NCBI GenBank assembly: GCA_012103325.1
Contig: WLWY01000001.1
Location: 1,153,653-1,217,652, forward strand
Direction of reading: 5' to 3'
Source: Alphaproteobacteria bacterium
Lineage (GTDB): Bacteria; Pseudomonadota; Alphaproteobacteria; UBA8366; GCA-2717185
DNA: 64,000 nucleotides
The notes beneath the pieces are model-generated. The model worked only from the letters and a program-made list of their open reading frames with translations. It did not search any database and was not told where the DNA came from. Below, piece after piece: positions 4,821 to 41,239 of the stretch. A program made the position numbers and the translations under genes. Numbering within the stretch: the first letter of the stretch is position 1; each line of letters starts with the position of its first letter.

Positions 4821-6125
4821 TTAAGCATTTTGCGCCAAAACGACACCAGCCAAATATAGCGAACCGCAAATAAGGATACGCCCGGGTTCATCAGCAGCTG
4901 TAACCAGCCCCTGAACAGCGTCTACGAGGTCCGCCGCGGGTTGCGCTCGAAGGCGCGCGGCGCGGGCGCCTTGCGCGGCCTCTTCGGCCGACAAGCTCGC
5001 CTCTTCACCCGGGATCGAGATACTACGCGATGCCCGTACAGACCGTGCGACCGGCGCAAGTAGTGCCCGCAGATCCTTCGTATTGAGTACACCGAAAACC
5101 AAATCCAGCGGGCGATTAACCCACTCCCGCGCAACTTCCGCCAGAACCTTGCCCGCGGCTGCATTATGGCCACCATCGAGCCACAACTCCCAGCCGGGTG
5201 GCAACAGATCGACCAACGGCCCGGAGAGCAGGCGTTGCAATCGTCCCGGCCAAACCACCTGTGTCAGGCCCTTGGCGATGGCGGCATTGGTGATACCGAA
5301 GCCCTCCAGCTTCTCCGTGCAGGCGATCGCCATGGCGGCGTTGTGATACTGATGTGCGCCCAAAAGCGCGGGCACCGGAAACTGGCGTATCGTCGGGCCC
5401 GACCGATAGCGAATTCCATCAACGCCGCCGGATACGCCCCAATCCGCGCCAAGGCGAAATAGCGGAGCCCCTACCTCCGCCGCCTGCTTTTCGATAACGA
5501 CTGCCGCTTCCGGAGGCTGTTCGCCGATCACCGAAGGCACATTCGGTTTCTGGATCGCCGCTTTCTCGCCGGCAATGTCCGTGAGCGTCGGCCCCAGAAA
5601 CTGGACATGATCGATCGAGATCGGCGTAATCGCCGTCAAAGCCGGCCGGTCGACCACATTGGTTGAATCGAACCGGCCGCCCAAACCGGTTTCAAGCAAC
5701 AAAATGTCCGCCGGTTTCTCCGCAAAGGCGCGAAACGCCGCCGCCGTCGTGATCTCGAAGAAGGTAATCGGGCGACCCTCGTTGAGGATTTCGCAGTAGC
5801 CGAGGAGCTGCGACAAATGTTCCTCCGGTATCAGTTCGCCCGCAAGCCGAATACGTTCGTTGAACCGGACCAGATGAGGTGAGGTGTAAGTGTGAACCCG
5901 CTTGCCTGCTGCCTCCAGAATGGCGCGCAGGAAGGCGATCAGGGAGCCCTTTCCGTTGGTGCCCGCAACATGGACAACCGGTGGCAGCCTGTCCTGCGGC
6001 CGTCCCAGCCGTTCCAGAAGATCCAGGGTCCGCCCCAAACTCAAATCGATCTTCTTCGGATGCAGCGACATCAGCCGCGCCAGAATGGCGTCGCTGCTGC
6101 GCGGGTCCATGCCTTCGGAAACCAA
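4821..6125 (-). CDS. folC: Bifunctional folylpolyglutamate synthase / dihydrofolate synthase
   Basis: Mur-ligase P-loop VHVAGTNGKGS; 434 aa; sits in the conserved folC-accD pairing. Confidence 0.85.
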   Translation of the reverse strand: MVSEGMDPRSSDAILARLMSLHPKKIDLSLGRTLDLLERLGRPQDRLPPVVHVAGTNGKGSLIAFLRAILEAAGKRVHTYTSPHLVRFNERIRLAGELIPEEHLSQLLGYCEILNEGRPITFFEITTAAAFRAFAEKPADILLLETGLGGRFDSTNVVDRPALTAITPISIDHVQFLGPTLTDIAGEKAAIQKPNVPSVIGEQPPEAAVVIEKQAAEVGAPLFRLGADWGVSGGVDGIRYRSGPTIRQFPVPALLGAHQYHNAAMAIACTEKLEGFGITNAAIAKGLTQVVWPGRLQRLLSGPLVDLLPPGWELWLDGGHNAAAGKVLAEVAREWVNRPLDLVFGVLNTKDLRALLAPVARSVRASRSISIPGEEASLSAEEAAQGARAARLRAQPAADLVDAVQGLVTAADEPGRILICGSLYLAGVVLAQNA

Positions 6126-16242: not shown

Positions 16243-16318
<76 letters not shown>

Positions 16319-16941: not shown

Positions 16942-17571
16942 CTAGGCGTCCTTTCGACGGCGGCGTGTCAGGGCTAAGCCACTTAAACCAATTCCGAAGA
17001 GTACAAGCGTGCCGGGTTCTGGAACCGCGCGGCCATTTGAAGCCTCGATAGTCGCCGTGGACTGGTTGGTGTCGATCGTACTAAAAACACTAGACCCTAA
17101 GTCGCCATTCTCGAATTGAACCGAAAACACGGCGCCAGCCTGACCGACAACGCCTCCAGGCGCGGGGTCGCTGATCAGGAAATCCGTATCAGCGGAGAAA
17201 CGCATCGAATCGCCGACGCCGAACGAGCCTGCCGCGAAGTTGAAAGTGAGCACTTGTGGATGATCTGTATCCCCTCCTACGAAGATGCTCGTAATGAAAC
17301 CTATATCGCCCGCAATCAATCCGTTCAGTGCGCCAATTACTGGAGCATTCGGAGAGCCATCAAAATCGAAAAAGGCGTTTGCATCGTTCGTAATATCGAA
17401 AGTAGCCGACTGAATGAAGCCTGTACCGCTTGTGAAAGAAATGCCCCAAAAATCGTTGCCAGCGTCAGCACTGTCGGTTCCGGTAGCATCGGCGATAACC
17501 GTTGCGTTAGCATTATTCGCAAACACAAAGAAGCAGCAAGCTGCCAACGTAAACATAATTCGCTTGTACAT
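16942..17571 (-). CDS. PEP-CTERM sorting-domain protein (predicted exosortase substrate)
   Basis: Signal peptide MYKRIMFTLAACCFFVFANNANA. C-terminal VPEPGTLVLFGIGLSGLALTRRRRKDA gives a PEP motif, a transmembrane helix and an Arg-rich tail. The gene is low-GC. The start is taken at the internal Met; the ORF track extends to 17637. Confidence 0.75.
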   Translation of the reverse strand: MYKRIMFTLAACCFFVFANNANATVIADATGTDSADAGNDFWGISFTSGTGFIQSATFDITNDANAFFDFDGSPNAPVIGALNGLIAGDIGFITSIFVGGDTDHPQVLTFNFAAGSFGVGDSMRFSADTDFLISDPAPGGVVGQAGAVFSVQFENGDLGSSVFSTIDTNQSTATIEASNGRAVPEPGTLVLFGIGLSGLALTRRRRKDA

Positions 17572-18372
17572 ATGCTTCCTCTCCTGTCGGAATGCTTTAC
17601 AATATGTGCCTGAATTGGGCATCTCAGAGGTATTCATGCAAATCCCGGGCCATAGCTATAAATTTAATTAAGTTATTGATTTTCATACAAACATGGGATT
17701 TCCTGTCTCAAAATTCCTGAAGATTGGGGTAAAACCGTCGGAATTCTTTACGTTTTTGAGTTGGCTTGTTACCTGGGATATCGCATATCGTGGTGGAAGT
17801 GGAGTCAGGGATGTTCTGAGGCACTGACCGTTCCTCGCTGAGGCTGTCCCGGCGTTGTTAGTTGACGCCCGCTCTTCCCCCGATTCTGTTGCAGAACTCG
17901 GTAGCTCAGCCAAAAAGGGGCCTAACGCGAAACAATGATTCAAAGTCAACGGCAGTCTTGAATCAAACTTACGTATCATTGTCGTTTGGGGACCGATAAT
18001 TTCGGGCAAGTCCTATGAACAGATTTTTGCAACAGAATCCCCCCAGCATGCGAAATCCCGATATCTACGGGGACAAAGAGGCCGTTACCACTCTTCGGTT
18101 CAGGTGGTCGCGCGCTATTGCCCCACACATATCCAACGATTTTCAAATCCCGGATAGCGAATATCCGCTACACTGTCGAGCATGCGGGATAATCCTGATC
18201 AGATCGCAGATAGCCTAATAGAGCAACACGGTGTTGAAGGCGCCTTGGTGGCGGCGAGAGACGGGATAGCGACGGCGCATGCGAGCGAGGACAATTACAG
18301 ACTAAGTGTCTGGCGTGAAGTGACTCGCGCGTTAAGAGACAAGCGGGACGCTCTTCAGGAACCGTCGGAATC

Positions 18373-31430: not shown

Positions 31431-32570
31431 TTACACCTCCTTTCCGTTGCGCGGCCGAATGCGCACGAGATCTTCGAGAACGCCGTCCATGCCGTTACCG
31501 ACAATGACGTTGCCGACCTTCTCGGACACCTTCTCAAGCGCCTCCAACTCCTTCAGCCGCAAGAGGGTCGGGTTGTCCTCCATCAGCTTCGCGGTGTTGA
31601 GCAGAGAGCGCGTTGCCGCGGTCTCTTCCCGACGCTTGATCACGTTGGCCTGCGCGGTCTTCTCGGCCTCGATCACCCGGTTCATCAACTCCCGCACGTC
31701 GCCGGGAAGGATGATGTCCTTCACGCCGACGGAGGGCACGTCGAGACCGGTATCCACGAGATTGCCGGCAAGTTGCCCGGCAATCGCCGCGTTGATCCCC
31801 TGCTTGTCGCCCAGCACCTCTTCGAGGGTCCGGGTGCCGACCACCTGACGCAGCGCGAATTGCAGCGCCTTGTACAGGTAGTCCTGCAGGTTCGCCGTGA
31901 CGGAGACGGCTGCCTCCGGATCGACAATCCGGTAGACCGCCGTCACGTTCGCCCGCAACCCGATCCGGTCCTTGGTCAGCACCTCCTGGCCGGTCACTTC
32001 CAGCGCCTGGAGCCGCAGATCGAGGATCACCGAATCGACCCGGTGCACCGCCCGCAGGAACGCGTACCGACCCGGTGCGAGTTGCCGCGTGAACACGCCG
32101 TCGACATACAGCAAGCCGACATGGTCGGAAGGCACTTCGACCGGTAGGACGAAGTTGGTCGCCTTCAACCGCATAAGCGGCGCGATCAGCGTTTCCGGCA
32201 CCACGATGTCCTGATCGGCATCGAGGACTCGGACTGCGATATCCCGCAGACCCTTGGCGTAGAACGCCCGTTCCCCCGGCCCGACCAGACCGACAAGCTT
32301 GCCGTCCGCGGAGACCAGACCGAGCTCGTTATCGGCCATGTCCGCCACGACGAAACGCTCGCCGACGATATCCGGATGCGTCAGGTAGAGCGCATCCAGC
32401 AACGGATCGCGCACGGGCAGCCGCGTCATGTCCAACTTCTGGACGAATGTGCGGACCGTCATGTCGCGCACCCGTCGGTACACACCGGGTCCCAGAACCT
32501 TCTGGAAGACCCGGTCGCGGTACTGGAGCCCGAGCTCCGTATCCGCAATCCTTTCAGTCTTGAAAACCAT
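31431..32570 (-). CDS. SPFH/band-7 (slipin-like) domain protein
   Basis: 379 aa. The C-terminal region resembles a band-7 domain with a coiled coil (…VIEAEKTAQANVIKRREETAATRSLLNTAKLMEDNPTLLRLKELEALEKV). Confidence 0.6.
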   Translation of the reverse strand: MVFKTERIADTELGLQYRDRVFQKVLGPGVYRRVRDMTVRTFVQKLDMTRLPVRDPLLDALYLTHPDIVGERFVVADMADNELGLVSADGKLVGLVGPGERAFYAKGLRDIAVRVLDADQDIVVPETLIAPLMRLKATNFVLPVEVPSDHVGLLYVDGVFTRQLAPGRYAFLRAVHRVDSVILDLRLQALEVTGQEVLTKDRIGLRANVTAVYRIVDPEAAVSVTANLQDYLYKALQFALRQVVGTRTLEEVLGDKQGINAAIAGQLAGNLVDTGLDVPSVGVKDIILPGDVRELMNRVIEAEKTAQANVIKRREETAATRSLLNTAKLMEDNPTLLRLKELEALEKVSEKVGNVIVGNGMDGVLEDLVRIRPRNGKEV

Positions 32571-32913
32571 AGGTCTTCTCCTTTTCTACGCTTCACTTCA
32601 ACGGAACCAAAAAGTTCCAAACGAATTGCTTTAAACGGGGAAACCGGAAGGAAACCGACACGAACGGTGCGGGTCGTGACGTCCATGCGTCCCACTCTCA
32701 TGAGAAGGGTTGAGGGTTCCGAACCGAATTGACCCGGCGTGCCCAACCTTTCATCGATGGAAGCGGAAAGCATGGAGATGTACTGGCGCTGAGCGCCGCC
32801 ATGCCTGATCTGGTCTGCCATGCAGCCGAAGCTGCAAAACAAACGCAAATCTGGTTTCCTTCCGGCGCCCCAATATTGTGACTGTCTAAAAGTCAGGAGC
32901 GATTTTCAGTCGC

Positions 32914-32983
32914 ATTGATGGAGGGAATCGAACCCTCGACAGCTGAAGCCTAAGTTCAGTGCTCTTCCTCTGAGCTACATCCG
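32914..32983 (-). tRNA. tRNA-like element (class I, anticodon UAG) with imperfect acceptor stem; possible pseudogene
   Basis: D-arm, anticodon arm (CTGAA-CTTAGGC-TTCAG) and T-arm (GAGGG-TTCGATT-CCCTC) are canonical. Acceptor pairs 2:71 and 3:70 are mismatched, there is no CCA, and the variable loop is short despite a Leu-type anticodon. It abuts the CCA of the neighbouring tRNA. Confidence 0.45.
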
Positions 32984-33059
32984 TGGGGGCCATGGCAGGA
33001 GTCGAACCCGCGACATCCGGATTCGAAATCCGGTGCTCTTCCAGCTGAGCTACATGGCC
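32984..33059 (-). tRNA. tRNA with anticodon UCG (Arg by the genetic code), CCA encoded
   Basis: Acceptor GGCCATG/CATGGCC, D-arm GCTC-AGCTGGAA-GAGC, anticodon arm CCGGA-TTTCGAA-TCCGG, T-arm GCGGG-TTCGACT-CCTGC, discriminator C, CCA. The UCG anticodon is uncommon in bacteria. Confidence 0.75.
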
Positions 33060-33534
33060 AGGTTCCACCTTGGGAGTCCGCTTCCTCGATACACGCAAGA
33101 CGCATTACGAGCGTCAAGCGCGCCGGCCGGGCATTCGGAACCCGAACCATGGCGAAGCGAACGGTCCGAAAAAGGACCAAACGAACGAAGCCCGGTCACC
33201 CCATAATCGGTGCCGGCGTTTCGGCTATGTGTGTAAATGTTCTTTCATCTGTCTCGCTCCTTTTCCTGCAAATCGGAAGGGCGAGACGCGCGGGTATTCG
33301 AGCGTCAGCCCTTAGTTCGGCCGGGCAAACCTTGCCCGTATTGTTTCGCTATATGACGCATCGTTTCTCTTTTCCGCGTTGATGTTGGCCGCCCGGTTCG
33401 CGAGCGGACGGCGCTTGTAGGACAGGTTGGTGTCGCCGATCAACAGCCAAGTTGTCGGCGCTCGAAGAAAGACCGATTACATCGGATCGTTCTGGGATCG
33501 GGAAATTTTCGATCCGTGACATTGCCGGGAGCGG

Positions 33535-37346: not shown

Positions 37347-37492
37347 TGGGTTATCCCTCAGGAAATAGGAAGGCCGCGTTATATCAGACGAAGCGGCGCG
37401 ACGAAACCGCGACCGGGTCGATTGCTTTGACGTCACTGGACCGCGCTTATAAGCTTATCGCTTCCTGTCCTTTTCCCGCCACCGGTGAATCC

Positions 37493-39136
37493 ATGACCGA
37501 CGCGTTCGATCCCGTAACCCTGGAGATATACTGGAGCCGCCTGATCTCCATCGCGGACGAGTCCGCGGCGGCGCTCCTGCGCACGTCCTTTTCGACCATC
37601 GTCCGCGAGTCGAACGATTTCGGTACCGTCCTGATGGACGCCAACGGCGACTCGCTTTCGGAGAATACGGGCGGCATTCCGTCCTTCTCGGGCATCCTGC
37701 CGCGCACGCTGAAACACTTCCTGGCACGCTTTCCCAAGGAAACCTGGAAGCCCGGCGACTGCGTCATCACCAATGACCCGTGGCTGGCGACGGGGCACCT
37801 GCCCGACATCACTATGGCAATGCCGATCTTTCATAACGGCACATTGGTCGGGTTTTCGGGATCGATCGCCCATTCGCCGGATATCGGCGGATCGCTGTGG
37901 TCCGCGGACTGCCGCGAGCTGTTCGAAGAAGGGCTGCGCATCCCGCCGACGAAATTCCTGATCGAAGGCGAACCGAACGAGTTGCTGCAGGAAATCATCC
38001 TCAGCAACGTGCGGCTTCCGGATCAGGTCTTGGGCGACCTCAACGCGCAGGTCACGGCGAACCAAGTCTGCGGCCGGCGGCTGCACGAATTTTTGGACGA
38101 TTCCGATCTGGCAGATTTGTCGAGCCTGTCGAGCACCCTGCAACAGCGTGCGGAGAGCGCGATGCGCCGCGCCATCGAGGAGGTACCGGACGGCGTCTAC
38201 CACGCGACACTCGATGCCGACGGCTTCGACGAGGACGAAACCCATATCGAATGCACGATCACGGTCAAGGGCTCGGACCTGAACATCGACTATGCCGGCA
38301 CGTCGCCGCAGATCAATCGCGGCCTCAACACCGTGATGAACTACACCTATGCCTACTCCGCCTACCCGATCAAATGCGCGCTCGACCCGAGCACGCCGCG
38401 CAACGAAGGATCCTACCGTCCCGTCACCGTGGACGCGCCCGAAGGCTGCATCCTCAACCCGCGCTACCCGGCGCCCTGTAACGCGCGCCAGCTGACCGGA
38501 CACCTGCTTGCCGGCGTCATCTACCGCGCGCTGGCGGAAGCGATTCCGGACCGCATACTGGCCGACAGCGGCAGCGCGCCCTCGATGCGCGCCGTCTTCA
38601 ACGGGCTCGACCCGCATGGCAACCGCTTCTCGCAGATTCTGTTCGCCAGCGGCGGCATGGGCGCCAGCGCGCATAAGGACGGGCTGCCAACGACGGCGTT
38701 CCCGACCAATTCCGGCGCCGGCAGCATCGAAGCGTTCGAGAGCGTGTCGCCGCTGATCGTCTGGAAGAAGGAGTTCCGCGTCGATTCCGGCGGCGCCGGT
38801 CAGTTCCGCGGCGGCTTGGGGCAGGAATGCGAGATCGAGGTCCGTTCCGCCGAACCCTTGCAGCTGTCGCTGCTGTCGGACCGCTGGCGGCACCCCGCGA
38901 CGGGTGTGCTGGGCGGCGAACACGGGGCGACCAGCAGGATCAGTTTCAGCGACGGCACCATACCGCACCAGAAATCGCGCACGACCATCGGGCCCGGCAT
39001 GCGGCTGCACATGGAATATGCCGGTGGCGGCGGGTATGGCGACCCGAAAACCCGCGATCCTGAGCTGGTCCTCGACGACATCAAGAACGGCTATATCACC
39101 GCGGACGCCGCAAAACGCGACTACGACGTCTCCTAA
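37493..39136 (+). CDS. hyuB: Hydantoinase B / oxoprolinase family protein
   Basis: Starts MTDAFDPVTLEIYWSRLISIADESAAALLRTSFSTIVRESNDFGTVLMDANGD. About 548 aa. Confidence 0.85.
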   Translation: MTDAFDPVTLEIYWSRLISIADESAAALLRTSFSTIVRESNDFGTVLMDANGDSLSENTGGIPSFSGILPRTLKHFLARFPKETWKPGDCVITNDPWLATGHLPDITMAMPIFHNGTLVGFSGSIAHSPDIGGSLWSADCRELFEEGLRIPPTKFLIEGEPNELLQEIILSNVRLPDQVLGDLNAQVTANQVCGRRLHEFLDDSDLADLSSLSSTLQQRAESAMRRAIEEVPDGVYHATLDADGFDEDETHIECTITVKGSDLNIDYAGTSPQINRGLNTVMNYTYAYSAYPIKCALDPSTPRNEGSYRPVTVDAPEGCILNPRYPAPCNARQLTGHLLAGVIYRALAEAIPDRILADSGSAPSMRAVFNGLDPHGNRFSQILFASGGMGASAHKDGLPTTAFPTNSGAGSIEAFESVSPLIVWKKEFRVDSGGAGQFRGGLGQECEIEVRSAEPLQLSLLSDRWRHPATGVLGGEHGATSRISFSDGTIPHQKSRTTIGPGMRLHMEYAGGGGYGDPKTRDPELVLDDIKNGYITADAAKRDYDVS

Positions 39137-39154
39137 AGACAGGTGGATGAAAGA

Positions 39155-41239
39155 ATGAACAAACGTATCCGCATCGGGGTCGATGTCGGCGGGACCTTCA
39201 CGGATTTCGTGCTGGTCGATGAAGAACGGGACCTGATCTATACGGGCAAGCGTTTGACGACACCGGACGACCCGAGCGCCGCAATCCTCGACGGCACGGC
39301 ACGGCTGCTTACCGAAGCGGGCACGGAACCGGCGCAAGTCCACAGCATCGTCCACGGCACGACCCTGGTCACCAACACGATCATCGAACGCAACGGCGCG
39401 AAGATCGGGCTGATCACCACCAAGGGCGTGCGCGACACCTTGGAGATGGGCAAAGAGATCCGCTACGACCTCTACGATCTGTTCCTCGAAGCGCCGCCCA
39501 CCCTCGTCCCGCGCCACCTGCGCCGGGAAGTCGCGGAGCGTGTCGCGCCGGACGGTGAGATCCTGCTCGATTTCGATGCGGATGCGTTCCGCGCCACAGC
39601 CCTCGACCTCATCGAAACCGAGAAGGTGGAAGCGATTGCCGTCTGCTTCATGCACGCCTACCGCAACCCGGATCATGAGCGCCAAGCCAAGGCGATTCTG
39701 ATGGAGGAGTTCGACGCGACGCCGTTCACCATCTCCTCCGATGTCGCACCGGAAATCCGCGAGTTCGAACGCACCAGCACCGCCTGCGCCAACGCCTATG
39801 TGCAACCGCGCATGCAGAGCTATCTGCAGCGGCTCGAAACCGAACTGCAGGCGCAAGGCCATTCGGGCGCGCTGTACGTCATGTTGTCCGGCGGCGGCAT
39901 CACCACTGTCCAGTCGGCCCGCGAATTTCCCATCCGTCTCATCGAGTCGGGTCCAGCGGCAGGTGCCATGGCCGCGTCGTACTACAGCACCCTGACCGAC
40001 ACCGAGAACCTGATCTCCTTCGACATGGGCGGCACCACGGCGAAGATGTGCCTGATCGATGGCGGCCAGCCCGACCGCAAGCATGATTTCGAAGCCGGCC
40101 GGGTGCGCCGCTTCCAGAAGGGCTCCGGCCTGCCGCTCAAAGTCTCCGTCGTCGACATGATCGAGATCGGCGCCGGCGGCGGCAGCCTTGCCAATGTCGA
40201 CAATATGGGTCTGCTGAAGGTCGGGCCGCGCAGCGCCGGCTCCGCGCCGGGGCCGGTCTGCTACGGGCTCGGCGGCACCGACCCGGCCGTGACCGACGCC
40301 GACCTCTATCTCGGCTACCTCAACCCCGACTACTTCCTCGGTGGGGAGATGAGGCTCGACATGGCGACGGTGGAACAGGCGATCGAGGAGAAGATCGCCA
40401 AACCGCTCGGCCTCTCGACCCTGGACGCCGCCATCGGCATCCACAACATCGTCAACGAGAACATGGCCGCCGCGACGCGCATGCATCTGGCCGAGAAGGG
40501 CCGCGACCCACGGCGCTATCAGATGATCGCCTTCGGCGGTGCCGGGCCGGTGCATGCTTACGGCCTCGCGCAAATCCTGAAGCTCAAGCGGCTGATCGTG
40601 CCGCTCGGTGCCGGCGTGACCTCGGCGCTGGGATTCCTCGTTGCGGCACCGGCCATCGATTATGTACGCAGCTACGTCTCGCGGCTGGAGCAGCTCGACT
40701 GGGGGCATCTCAACACGCTGTTCAAGGAGATGGAGGAAGAGGCCAAGGGACTGCTCGTCGATGCCGGCGCCCAGCCCGAGGAAATTACCCTGACGCGGAC
40801 GGCGGACATGCGGCATATCGGGCAGGGATTCGAGATTGCGGTGCCGGTTCCGGAGGGCGAATTAACACCCGGTCTTCTACCGGGTATTCGGGAGGCGTTT
40901 TTCCAGTCCTATCACCGGCTGTTCGAGCGTACGGTTCGGGATGTTTCCATTGAATCAATGAGTTGGCGTCTTGCCGCGAGTGCACCAGTGCCCAACATCA
41001 AACTTGCGTTCGGCGGACAGTCGTCGGAAACGGGGGAAGCGCTGAAAGGCACCCGCCAGGTCTACTTCCCAGAGACTGGATTCGCCGCCTGCGACGTCTA
41101 CGACCGCTACGCGCTGCACCCGGGCGACAGCTTCACCGGCCCGGCGGTCGTCGAGGAGCGCGAATCGACCACGGTGATCGGCCCCGGCGGTTCGGTCACC
41201 GTCGACCCATACCGCAATTTGATCTGTGCACTGCCCTAA
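39155..41239 (+). CDS. hyuA: Hydantoinase A / oxoprolinase family protein
   Basis: MNKRIRIGVDVGGTFTDFVLVDEE with an ASKHA-fold body. An alternative start lies at 39143. Confidence 0.85.
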   Translation: MNKRIRIGVDVGGTFTDFVLVDEERDLIYTGKRLTTPDDPSAAILDGTARLLTEAGTEPAQVHSIVHGTTLVTNTIIERNGAKIGLITTKGVRDTLEMGKEIRYDLYDLFLEAPPTLVPRHLRREVAERVAPDGEILLDFDADAFRATALDLIETEKVEAIAVCFMHAYRNPDHERQAKAILMEEFDATPFTISSDVAPEIREFERTSTACANAYVQPRMQSYLQRLETELQAQGHSGALYVMLSGGGITTVQSAREFPIRLIESGPAAGAMAASYYSTLTDTENLISFDMGGTTAKMCLIDGGQPDRKHDFEAGRVRRFQKGSGLPLKVSVVDMIEIGAGGGSLANVDNMGLLKVGPRSAGSAPGPVCYGLGGTDPAVTDADLYLGYLNPDYFLGGEMRLDMATVEQAIEEKIAKPLGLSTLDAAIGIHNIVNENMAAATRMHLAEKGRDPRRYQMIAFGGAGPVHAYGLAQILKLKRLIVPLGAGVTSALGFLVAAPAIDYVRSYVSRLEQLDWGHLNTLFKEMEEEAKGLLVDAGAQPEEITLTRTADMRHIGQGFEIAVPVPEGELTPGLLPGIREAFFQSYHRLFERTVRDVSIESMSWRLAASAPVPNIKLAFGGQSSETGEALKGTRQVYFPETGFAACDVYDRYALHPGDSFTGPAVVEERESTTVIGPGGSVTVDPYRNLICALP

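What the first reader, a model, noticed from the sequence alone, without database searches (positions are those of the whole stretch)
32914..33059. Tandem tRNA pair: a tRNA with rare UCG anticodon directly abutting a class-I tRNA-like element with Leu-type UAG anticodon and defective acceptor stem
The right-hand gene (32984-33059, - strand) folds into a perfect cloverleaf with anticodon UCG and an encoded CCA. UCG is not among the usual bacterial Arg isoacceptors (ACG/CCG/UCU/CCU). Its CCA end touches the 5' end of a second tRNA-shaped sequence with intact D-, anticodon- and T-arms (TTCGATT loop) but mismatches at acceptor pairs 2:71 and 3:70. That second sequence has no CCA and a short variable loop, although anticodon UAG would specify Leu, which is always class II in bacteria. 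This may be a decaying duplicated tRNA, an integration-site remnant (tRNA genes are island insertion hotspots and this pair sits inside accessory DNA), or a non-canonical tRNA.
Basis: seen in the sequence. Interest (0 to 1): 0.5.

Follow-up and report, generated by a model that had tools for sequence, protein, structure and literature searches.

The report
tRNA mimic pair before slipin gene
The two abutting tRNA-shaped sequences are real, and they are the conserved RNA partner of the neighbouring stomatin-like (slipin/Band-7) gene, a module predicted in 2016 in RNA-repair loci as "band-7-associated tRNA" but never tested; they are not a decaying gene copy or an insertion scar.

Summary
ARAGORN and Rfam both find a complete cloverleaf with anticodon UCG and an encoded CCA (32984-33059, minus strand). 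It abuts a second tRNA shape with anticodon UAG, a short variable loop, no CCA, and mismatches at acceptor pairs 2:71 and 3:70 (32912-32984).

The same arrangement lies about 400 nt upstream of nearly every homologue of the next gene, a cytosolic SPFH/Band-7 "slipin" protein (31431-32570). It was present in 61 of 66 metagenomic loci.

Across 72 distinct gene-proximal elements:
- The D, anticodon and T stems and acceptor pairs 4-7 are 97-100% paired, with abundant compensatory changes.
- Acceptor pairs 1, 2 and 3 form in only 29%, 65% and 83%.
- CCA is almost always absent.
- The anticodon loop takes 46 different forms.

In relatives the slipin gene sits beside RtcB, RlaP, RtcR, HNH endonuclease genes and long tRNA arrays. 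This matches the predicted "b7a-tRNA" of Burroughs & Aravind (2016).

This window holds an orphan version with no RtcB. It also has a covariation-supported structured domain of about 230 nt, unknown to Rfam, between the mimic and the gene. Function is inferred by analogy with Ro60/Y RNA.

The parts
33084..33148 (-). Conserved block upstream of unit 1. It holds a T-arm-like hairpin CGGG-TTCCGAATG-CCCG (33144-33128) and the hairpin GACGC-TCGTAAT-GCGTC (33115-33099). It is probably the transcribed 5' part of the RNA. No promoter was identified.
   Evidence: The block is conserved by eye in all close relatives and recognisable in distant ones. The second hairpin's stem covaries: GGCGC/GCGCC in L108, GGCTC/GAGCC in L106, GGCGT/ACGCC in L107. 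The scan found no sigma-70-like site.
32984..33059 (-). Unit 1: a complete tRNA-shaped unit with a 7/7 acceptor stem, A20, anticodon loop UUUCGAA (UCG, 'Arg'), discriminator C and an encoded CCA.
   Evidence: ARAGORN; Rfam 69.5 bits. The orthologous units in relatives share the body but carry other or malformed anticodon loops.
32912..32984 (-). Unit 2: a tRNA mimic of the b7a-tRNA type. The D, anticodon and T arms are intact, the loop is CUUAGGC ('UAG'), only the lower acceptor pairs are conserved (GATG/CATC), pairs 2:71 and 3:70 are mismatched, and there is no CCA.
   Evidence: Model R1 scores it 86.8 bits.
32879..32913 (-). Two short hairpins directly after unit 2: GCGA-CTGAAAA-TCGC (32913-32899) and TGACT-TTTAGAC-AGTCA (32895-32879).
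   Evidence: Read from the sequence. Equivalent hairpins with different stem sequences occur in L013, L019, L021, L022 and L023.
32641..32868 (-). Structured leader domain of about 230 nt, closed by a long-range helix (32866-32853 pairing with 32656-32643; CCGGAAGGAAACC / GGTTTCCTTCCGG).
   Evidence: RNAalifold on 11 relatives gives 43 pairs, 21 of them with compensatory changes. The pair count is 90.3% paired against 34-50% when partners are slid, the covariation score is 0.392 against at most 0.119, and 0 of 500 shuffles reach it. No Rfam family matches.
32578..32618 (-). Conserved hairpin GGAAC-TTTTTG-GTTCC (32618-32603), followed by the ribosome-binding site AAGGAG (32583-32578) of the slipin gene.
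   Evidence: Sequence. The motif TTTGGAAC..GTTCC is conserved in L013, L019, L021, L106, L107 and L108.
31431..32570 (-). Slipin family (SPFH/Band-7, stomatin-like) protein of 379 aa, with no hydrophobic membrane segment seen by eye.
   Evidence: Pfam Band_7, E 3.6e-28. Sources name the homologues 'slipin family protein'. Residues 178-357 match solved stomatin structures.

Best explanation
The pair is the RNA component of a Band-7/SPFH ('slipin')-centred module of the RNA-repair type. [quoted passage not shown]

Shown here:
- Two abutting tRNA-shaped units, two hairpins, a ~230-nt structured domain and the slipin ORF lie on one strand with no terminator-like site between them.
- This arrangement is conserved across many bacteria while the other neighbouring genes change.
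- The gene-proximal unit is under strong selection for the tRNA fold, but not for an anticodon, a full acceptor stem or a CCA end.
- In relatives the slipin gene is flanked by RtcB ligase, RlaP nucleotidyltransferase, RtcR, HNH endonuclease genes and tRNA arrays.

Inferred:
- The units are co-transcribed with slipin.
- Cleavage at the junction, most simply by RNase P at the 5' edge of unit 2, would release unit 1 with a CCA or near-CCA end.
- Unit 2, alone or still attached to the leader, would serve as the tRNA-shaped ligand of the cytosolic stomatin-like oligomer. This parallels the tRNA-like Y RNA YrlA, which partners Ro60/Rsr in the parallel RtcB operons.
- In that role it would present a tRNA surface to tRNA-handling or repair enzymes, or act as a decoy or sensor for anticodon-loop nucleases.

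Unit 1 could in addition be charged as tRNA-Arg(UCG) in this genome, but decoding is not its conserved role.
For: - Anatomy.
- Linkage to slipin: the identical locus occurs in three assemblies. Every fetched homologue in the close clade has the pair in a 0.9-1.3 kb gene-free gap despite different neighbours. Of 66 metagenomic slipin loci with enough upstream sequence, 61 have a same-strand tRNA(-like) element ending 250-750 nt before the start codon, median -406. Only 5 of 180 tRNAs in those loci are on the other strand.
- Reciprocal test: a search for the tRNA pattern alone returned slipin-linked loci in Bosea, Parvibaculum, an alphaproteobacterial MAG and a Thermodesulfobacteriota MAG.
- Fold selection without decoder selection: in 72 distinct proximal elements all stem pairs except acceptor pairs 1-3 are 97-100% formed, with up to 6 pair types per position in the anticodon stem and lower acceptor stem. 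Pairs 1, 2 and 3 form in 29%, 65% and 83%. There are 46 different anticodon loops of 4-8 nt, including anticodons such as AAA, AAU and AAC. An NCCA tail occurs in about 4 of 72. Array tRNAs in the same loci have pair 1 formed in 88% and NCCA in 54 of 75.
- RNA-repair context: rtcR lies divergent from slipin-RlaP in Citrobacter. RtcB is adjacent in about two dozen of the 80 metagenome loci, the HNH endonuclease in 17, and RlaP and RtcA also occur.
- Literature: the b7a-tRNA concept is quoted in bioRxiv 10.1101/312249. A P. aeruginosa SPFH gene lies inside the rtc locus (PMC13086221). Anabaena slipin alr0740 is de-repressed together with rtcB and the tRNA array (PMC10272220).
- Co-transcription: no terminator-like site lies between unit 2 and the ORF.
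Against: - No RtcB, RtcA, RlaP, Ro60, RtcR or HNH homologue lies anywhere in this 64-kb window. The repair context is borrowed from relatives.
- No expression, processing or binding data exist. As of 2018 the b7a-tRNA itself had 'not been validated experimentally'.
- The original 2016 paper could not be read here, so its exact definition is taken from a secondary source and from my memory.
- One close relative (L108, slipin 66% identical) keeps the upstream block and the leader domain but has no tRNA-shaped unit (best 8.7 bits). L106 has only one unit. The units are therefore dispensable in some lineages.
- The promoter was not found.
- A purely cis-acting role cannot be separated from a trans-acting ribonucleoprotein role by sequence alone.
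Confidence: 0.6

Rival explanations
1. Cis-acting leader only. The tRNA shapes would be processing and stability signals for the slipin mRNA. RNase P would cut at unit 2, and the tRNA fold plus the structured domain would protect or regulate the mRNA 5' end and its translation. There would be no trans-acting RNA-protein particle.
For: The elements are always on the same strand at a constant distance upstream of the ORF. A structured domain and a conserved hairpin lie next to the ribosome-binding site. No terminator separates RNA and ORF. A CCA sits at the 5' edge of the mimic in 57 of 71 loci even without an upstream tRNA, which fits a conserved cleavage junction.
Against: A mere RNase P signal would not need a conserved anticodon stem or an invariant D stem. 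The homologous Ro60 operons use a tRNA-like RNA as a protein partner. L108 keeps the leader but has lost the tRNA shapes.
Confidence: 0.25
2. Both units are working tRNAs: an accessory tRNA-Arg(UCG), and an unusual class-I tRNA that reads CUN codons after 5'-end repair and CCA addition and is perhaps charged with a non-Leu amino acid.
For: Unit 1 has A20, C35, G36, a perfect cloverleaf and CCA. Unit 2's loop CUUAGGC has U33 and G37, as CUN readers do. ARAGORN and Rfam call both units tRNAs.
Against: Orthologous units keep the body but change the anticodon freely: UCG, CUU, GUC, AUG and CGG in unit 1, and 46 loop variants in unit 2. Some loops have 4-8 nt, and some anticodons start with an unmodifiable A34. 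Near-identical relatives differ by one loop base, for example CTGATAA against CTGAAAA. Unit 2 has no long variable arm, has G73 rather than A73, has no CCA, and its family loses acceptor pairs 1-3.
Confidence: 0.06
3. Unit 2 is a decaying tandem duplicate (pseudogene) of unit 1.
For: The two units share the D arm and much of the T arm, about 70% identity. The acceptor top is mismatched.
Against: Decay would hit all stems. Here 18 of 21 pairs are 97-100% kept across 72 sequences, through compensatory changes, and the 'defect' is confined to the same three pairs everywhere. The element is 100% identical in three assemblies and recognisable in different orders of bacteria.
Confidence: 0.03
4. The pair is the remnant of a mobile-element integration at a tRNA gene, marking an island boundary.
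For: tRNA genes are common integration sites. GC is slightly lower here, 0.58-0.59 against about 0.62.
Against: There is no second copy of either 3' end within 64 kb at up to 3 mismatches. No integrase was seen among the ten flanking ORFs scanned, which are metabolic or transport genes. A full second cloverleaf is not what integration duplicates. Synteny is conserved in relatives.
Confidence: 0.02

Closest known systems
b7a-tRNA (band-7-associated tRNA) with SPFH/Band-7 protein in RtcB RNA-repair systems (Burroughs & Aravind 2016, NAR 44:8525; quoted in bioRxiv 10.1101/312249)
   Same: A predicted ncRNA that strongly resembles a tRNA, encoded next to a Band-7 domain protein. Homologous loci contain RtcB, RlaP, RtcA and RtcR.
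   Different: This locus has no RtcB or other repair gene within 64 kb. It has two abutting units, the first with a full acceptor stem and CCA. A ~230-nt covarying domain lies between the mimic and the ORF. Many relatives are embedded in tRNA arrays. I could not check whether the 2016 paper reports these last three points, because the paper is not held.
YrlA / bacterial Y RNA with Ro60 (Rsr) in rsr-yrlBA-rtcBA operons (Rfam RF02553)
   Same: A tRNA-mimicking RNA encoded beside a putative scaffold protein in RtcR/RtcB contexts. One pattern hit (L009, Sphingopyxis) is exactly such an operon: rtcR, Ro60, tRNA-like RNA, RtcB, RlaP, RtcA.
   Different: The Rfam YrlA score is only 29.9 bits against a gathering score of 69. 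The units here keep a complete anticodon arm instead of a Ro-binding stem. The partner protein is SPFH, not TROVE.
[quoted passage not shown] 2021, PMC8421152; Tran et al. 2016, PMC4758250)
   Same: In 13 of 66 relatives' loci the slipin gene sits inside or beside runs of 4-15 same-strand, CCA-encoding tRNA genes, often with an HNH endonuclease gene. In Anabaena the array, rtcB and a slipin gene share the TrcR regulon.
   Different: The window has only two units and no array. Unit 1's body resembles the 'unit 1' of relatives, not array tRNA-Arg(UCG) genes. The array papers read do not mention SPFH proteins.
Canonical bacterial tRNA-Leu (class II) and tRNA-Arg
   Same: Cloverleaf shape. Unit 1 has the Arg identity set A20/C35/G36. 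Unit 2 has G37 after a UAG anticodon.
   Different: Unit 2 lacks the long variable arm, A73, the top of the acceptor stem and CCA. Neither anticodon is conserved among orthologues.

Membership tests
b7a-tRNA / Band-7 RNA-repair module | ncRNA that folds like an authentic tRNA (D, anticodon and T arms) | tested here: met
   ARAGORN and Rfam tRNA hits. Family covariation is, and the R1 score is 86.8 bits.
b7a-tRNA / Band-7 RNA-repair module | Encoded adjacent to a Band-7/SPFH domain protein gene | tested here: met
   The slipin gene lies 342 nt downstream on the same strand. The linkage holds in 61 of 66 homologous loci and in the reciprocal RNA-first search.
b7a-tRNA / Band-7 RNA-repair module | Locus also encodes RtcB or other RNA-repair enzymes (RlaP, RtcA) or the regulator RtcR | tested here: not met
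   tblastn with RtcB, RtcA, RlaP, Ro60, RtcR and HNH queries finds nothing in the window. The feature is met in many homologous loci. The window is therefore an orphan version.
b7a-tRNA / Band-7 RNA-repair module | The RNA exists as a stable species and associates with the Band-7 protein | not testable with these tools
   No expression data are available. The literature states it was not validated as of 2018.
Canonical elongator tRNA (unit 2 as tRNA-Leu) | 7-bp acceptor stem, discriminator and 3' CCA | tested here: not met
   Pairs 2:71 (C.A) and 3:70 (G.A) are mismatched and the tail is GCGA. In the family, pairs 1, 2 and 3 form in 29%, 65% and 83%, and NCCA occurs in about 4 of 72.
Canonical elongator tRNA (unit 2 as tRNA-Leu) | Bacterial Leu identity: long variable arm and A73 | tested here: not met
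   The variable loop has 5 nt and position 73 is G.
Canonical elongator tRNA (either unit) | Anticodon conserved among orthologues | tested here: not met
   Unit 2 has 46 loop variants. Unit 1 carries UCG, CUU, GUC, UUU in an oversized loop, AUG, CGG, or no 7-nt loop.
tRNA-Arg (unit 1) | ArgRS identity elements A20, C35, G36/U36 and an intact CCA end | tested here: met
   Read from the sequence and the Rfam alignment. Charging itself was not tested.
YrlA Y RNA (RF02553) | Score at or above the Rfam gathering threshold, and adjacency to Ro60/Rsr | tested here: not met
   The score is 29.9 bits against 69. There is no TROVE/Ro60 homologue in the window.
tRNA array (L-array) | Dense run of many tRNA genes (about 20 or more, at least 2 per kb) | tested here: not met
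   There are only two units here and three tRNA-like genes in 64 kb. Arrays are present at relatives' slipin loci.
Integration-site remnant at a tRNA gene | Direct repeat of the tRNA 3' end, plus an integrase or mobile genes | tested here: not met
   Each 3' end occurs once at up to 3 mismatches. The neighbours scanned are metabolic or transport genes.

The most novel reading that the evidence does not exclude
The whole ~580-nt stretch from the conserved 5' block to the ribosome-binding site could be one composite, ornate RNA. It would comprise the 5' block, a CCA-ended tRNA unit, an acceptor-less tRNA mimic, hairpins and a 230-nt closed domain. It would assemble with the membrane-free stomatin-like oligomer into a cytosolic ribonucleoprotein, a bacterial counterpart of Ro/Y-RNA or vault particles. 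Ancestrally this RNA would be the terminal element of horizontally spreading tRNA arrays. That would physically link arrays, RtcB repair and the translational-stress response. The hypervariable anticodon loops would then reflect an arms race with anticodon nucleases, with the mimic acting as decoy or sensor.
Probability: 0.25. Interest if true: 0.75.

Novelty: new member of a known kind. Interest (0 to 1): 0.5.

Why it matters
Annotation pipelines call these elements tRNA-Leu, tRNA-Ile and so on. Here they show up as apparent "class-I tRNA-Leu" genes or genes with odd anticodons, which can mislead tRNA inventories and genetic-code screens. Recognising them as slipin-linked mimics removes false non-canonical tRNAs.

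Biologically, b7a-tRNA is a predicted but untested RNA class that is absent from Rfam. The comparative data here give a concrete, testable model system:
- 72 covarying sequences;
- a precise signature of an invariant D stem, a lost acceptor top, no CCA and a free anticodon loop;
- a new structured leader domain;
- frequent embedding in tRNA arrays next to RtcB, RlaP and HNH genes.

Cultured Pelagibius and Denitrobaculum strains, and Citrobacter and E. coli strains with rtcR-slipin-rlaP, carry versions of the module. They could be used to ask what SPFH proteins do in RNA repair and what tRNA arrays are for.

Tried and rejected
1. Plasmid origin. Megablast of the region against PLSDB found nothing, and the distant search hit only generic tRNA similarity.
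2. Phage origin. The tRNA pattern and the slipin protein have no relatives in IMG/VR.
3. An exact 36-mer of unit 2 is absent from the GTDB species representatives. The degenerate pattern was needed.
4. PADLOC defence models give no hit for the slipin proteins.
5. Sigma-54 promoter. The GG-N10-GC register fits in the window (33124-33111) and Citrobacter has a good CTGGCACGCTTCTGGCA site. However, the -12 GC is not conserved in L021 and L022, and many distant loci have a 1-nt-short spacing, so I do not claim it.
6. A sigma-70-like promoter was not found.
7. The idea that mismatches at pairs 1-3 mark a substrate for Thg1-like 5'-end repair, as in mitochondrial tRNA editing, was considered. It was dropped because the anticodon loop and CCA are also unconstrained.
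8. G3.A70 as a cryptic alanine identity was considered and dropped for the same reason.
9. The weak YrlA hit arises from T-arm and D-arm similarity across the junction of the two units, not from a Y RNA.
10. The 129-aa ORF at 32459-32848 has no Pfam hit and overlaps the covarying RNA domain. It is treated as spurious.
11. The Burroughs & Aravind paper could not be retrieved by DOI or PMC id.
12. My first acceptor-register script was unreliable. It was replaced by a T-arm-anchored one.

Full report
OBSERVATION. On the minus strand ARAGORN finds tRNA-Arg(tcg) at 32984-33059 and 'tRNA-Leu(tag)' at 32912-32984, overlapping by the A of the first unit's CCA. The Rfam tRNA model scores them 69.5 and 55.8 bits against a gathering score of 29. 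The alignment shows unit 1 fully paired, followed by C-CCA. Unit 2 has perfect D, anticodon and T arms, a 5-nt variable loop and the loop CUUAGGC, but non-standard pairs at 2:71 (C.A) and 3:70 (G.A) and no CCA.

CONTEXT IN THE WINDOW. The neighbouring genes are metabolic or transport genes: histidinol dehydrogenase, a fused hydantoinase/oxoprolinase, an MFS transporter, a 2-hydroxyacid dehydrogenase and TPP-enzyme halves. The gene directly downstream on the same strand is a 379-aa SPFH/Band-7 protein at 31431-32570. GC content is unremarkable. No terminator-like site lies between unit 2 and that gene. The region has no plasmid or phage relatives. Each tRNA 3' end occurs only once in the 64 kb.

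THE PAIR IS NOT A ONE-OFF. The identical locus occurs in three assemblies. A degenerate pattern for a class-I tRNA with this D arm and a UAG loop found only 15 places among about 185,000 species genomes. The convincing hits were alphaproteobacterial:
- An alphaproteobacterial MAG (L013) has the same Arg(tcg)+X(tag) tandem in the same synteny.
- A Bosea MAG (L011) has a 'His'-like unit followed by X(tag).
- A Parvibaculum MAG (L015) has X(tag).

In each of these, an SPFH gene follows on the same strand. The protein's homologues are named 'slipin family protein' and place the window near Kiloniellales/Pelagibius. I then fetched loci through the protein instead of the RNA. Every close homologue sits behind a 0.9-1.3 kb gene-free gap that holds two abutting tRNA shapes, although the other neighbours differ. 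The anticodons were Lys(ctt)+CUU-loop, 4-nt loop+Ile(gat), Lys(ttt)+Ile(tat), Asp(gtc)+UCA-loop, His(atg)+GAU-loop, and Pro(cgg)+Gly(tcc).

A metagenome scan with a slipin alignment gave 80 loci at 41-80% identity. Of the 66 with at least 700 nt upstream, 61 have a same-strand tRNA(-like) element ending 250-750 nt before the start codon (median -406). Only 5 of 180 tRNAs in these loci lie on the other strand.

WHAT KIND OF RNA UNIT 2 IS. I used a register anchored on the T arm and a covariance model built from eight alphaproteobacterial elements. The gene-proximal elements score 62-92 bits, mostly above the ordinary array tRNAs of the same loci. In 72 distinct proximal elements:
- The D stem is invariant (GCTC/GAGC).
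- The T stem is 100% paired.
- The anticodon stem is 97-100% paired, with 3-6 pair types per position.
- Acceptor pairs 4-7 are 97-100% paired and covary.
- Acceptor pairs 3, 2 and 1 form in only 83%, 65% and 29%.
- An NCCA tail occurs in about 4 of 72.
- There are 46 different anticodon loops of 4-8 nt, including anticodons that begin with A. Near-identical relatives differ by a single loop base.

The other tRNAs in the same loci have pair 1 formed in 88% and NCCA in 54 of 75. The 'defective acceptor stem', the absent CCA and the arbitrary anticodon are therefore conserved properties of a tRNA mimic, not decay. One caveat applies: the alignment was fitted to the model. The independent T-arm-anchored count gives the same picture.

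UNIT 1. In this genome unit 1 has everything an Arg tRNA needs: A20, C35, G36, a perfect stem and CCA. Its body, however, resembles the 'unit 1' of relatives that carry CUU, GUC or UUU, or a stem-extended loop. It does not resemble tRNA-Arg(UCG) genes from arrays. CCA is present in 6 of 9 close-clade units, read. Decoding is thus not the conserved role, although charging in this species is not excluded.

IDENTITY OF THE MODULE. A tblastn search of plasmid records found slipin homologues in Burkholderia, E. coli, Citrobacter and Photobacterium. The locus contents are as follows:
- In Citrobacter freundii the gene lies divergent from rtcR, 'RNA repair transcriptional activator RtcR'. It sits behind a sigma-54-type site and a T-arm-containing leader, and is followed by an RlaP nucleotidyltransferase, 'RNA repair pathway DNA polymerase beta family'.
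- Among the metagenome loci RtcB is adjacent to slipin in about two dozen, the HNH endonuclease in 17, and RlaP in several.
- L036 reads slipin-RtcB-RlaP.
- L009 (Sphingopyxis), found through the RNA pattern, reads rtcR, Ro60, tRNA-like RNA, RtcB, RlaP, RtcA.

[quoted passage not shown] The 2016 paper itself is not held. From memory, its abstract proposes SPFH/Band-7 and Ro/TROVE as scaffolding cofactors with cognate RNAs. Independent support comes from a P. aeruginosa SPFH gene embedded in the rtc locus. In Anabaena, slipin alr0740 is de-repressed 42-fold together with rtcB and the 26-gene tRNA array in a trcR mutant.

WHAT IS PARTICULAR HERE.
(a) None of RtcB, RtcA, RlaP, Ro60, RtcR or HNH is present in the 64-kb window. 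This is an orphan slipin + RNA unit.
(b) Between unit 2 and the ORF lie two hairpins and a ~230-nt domain (32868-32641) closed by a 14-bp long-range helix. On 11 relatives RNAalifold predicts 43 pairs, 21 of them with compensatory changes. 90.3% of cells are paired against 34-50% when partners are slid, and 0 of 500 shuffles reach the covariation score. Rfam has no match. Distant clades show an analogous closing helix by eye.
(c) A conserved block upstream of unit 1 (33148-33084) contains a covarying hairpin, so the transcript probably starts further upstream.
(d) In 13 of 66 metagenome loci the slipin gene lies within or beside runs of 4-15 CCA-encoding tRNA genes. The array papers I read do not mention this link.
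(e) A CCA lies at the 5' edge of the mimic in 57 of 71 loci, even where no upstream tRNA unit exists. This is unexplained.
(f) The units can be lost. L108 keeps the block and the leader but has no tRNA shape.

MECHANISM. Shown: conserved, co-oriented architecture; selection on the fold but not on decoding features; an RNA-repair neighbourhood in relatives. The slipin protein has no hydrophobic segment, and its residues 178-357 match stomatins that form 16-mer and larger rings. Inferred: co-transcription; cleavage at the unit 1/unit 2 junction that releases a CCA-ended unit 1; and unit 2, with or without the leader, acting as the tRNA-shaped partner of a cytosolic slipin oligomer, as YrlA partners Ro60. 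A purely cis-acting role in processing, stability or translation control is the main rival, and sequence alone cannot exclude it.

VERDICT. The element is a new, orphan, tandem member of the predicted b7a-tRNA/Band-7 class. It is known in concept, untested experimentally and absent from Rfam. Interest is moderate.

Noticed in passing
window 32641-32868 (-): A structured RNA domain of about 230 nt lies between the tRNA mimic and the slipin start codon. It is closed by a 14-bp long-range helix and has strong covariation in 11 relatives, with no Rfam match.
   Followed up: yes
L037, L044, L047, L049, L068, L087, L103 (whole loci): Slipin homologues sit inside or next to long same-strand arrays of 4-15 CCA-encoding tRNA genes, often with an HNH endonuclease and RtcB or RlaP. 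The tRNA-array papers I read do not mention an SPFH gene.
   Followed up: partly
junction at window 32984-32987, and 71 loci: A CCA lies within the 9-nt junction at the 5' edge of the gene-proximal mimic in 57 of 71 loci, including loci with no upstream tRNA unit. The reason is unknown.
   Followed up: partly
window 33084-33148 (-): A conserved block upstream of unit 1 holds a T-arm-like hairpin (33144-33128) and a hairpin whose stem covaries among relatives (33115-33099). This suggests the RNA starts further upstream. No promoter was identified.
   Followed up: partly
L108 1-1500; L106 1095-1180: One close relative (L108) keeps the upstream block, the leader domain and slipin but has lost both tRNA-shaped units. 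Another (L106) has a single unit with a long variable arm.
   Followed up: partly
L009 1120-8000: A Sphingopyxis MAG carries the operon rtcR, Ro60 (TROVE/vWA), tRNA-like RNA (5271-5336, -), RtcB, an unknown 210-aa ORF, RlaP and RtcA. It was found only because its tRNA-like RNA matched my pattern for unit 2.
   Followed up: partly
L105 5534-5983 (Citrobacter freundii NZ_CP151862): The gap between rtcR and slipin holds a good sigma-54-type site (CTGGCACGCTTCTGGCA) and a leader with a T-arm-like GGGTTCGATTCCC element, but no full tRNA shape by ARAGORN or Rfam. E. coli H240 (L104) carries a homologous slipin-RlaP pair.
   Followed up: partly
L036, L043, L033, L069, L015 (50-120 nt after the proximal mimic): In several clades a mini-element of one GNRA-type hairpin plus a T arm (for example GGCGAAAGCC-GTGGTTCAAATCCAC) follows the mimic. 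It looks like the variable arm plus T arm of a class-II tRNA.
   Followed up: no
L109 and L026, about 60-230 nt before the slipin start: A long GC-rich palindromic insert (GGGAGAGGGAGGGG ... CCCCTCCCTCTCCC) lies between the leader domain and the slipin start codon in two relatives.
   Followed up: no
window 16243-16318 (+) and 17001-18000: A tRNA-Ala(GGC) gene is followed within about 1 kb by the lowest-GC kilobase of the window (0.49 against about 0.62). This may be an inserted element. It was not examined.
   Followed up: no
window 37433-40816 (-): A 1127-aa ORF without any Pfam hit lies antisense to plus-strand ORFs that are called as hydantoinase genes in the identical MAG contig (L001). 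It is probably a spurious GC-rich antisense ORF.
   Followed up: no
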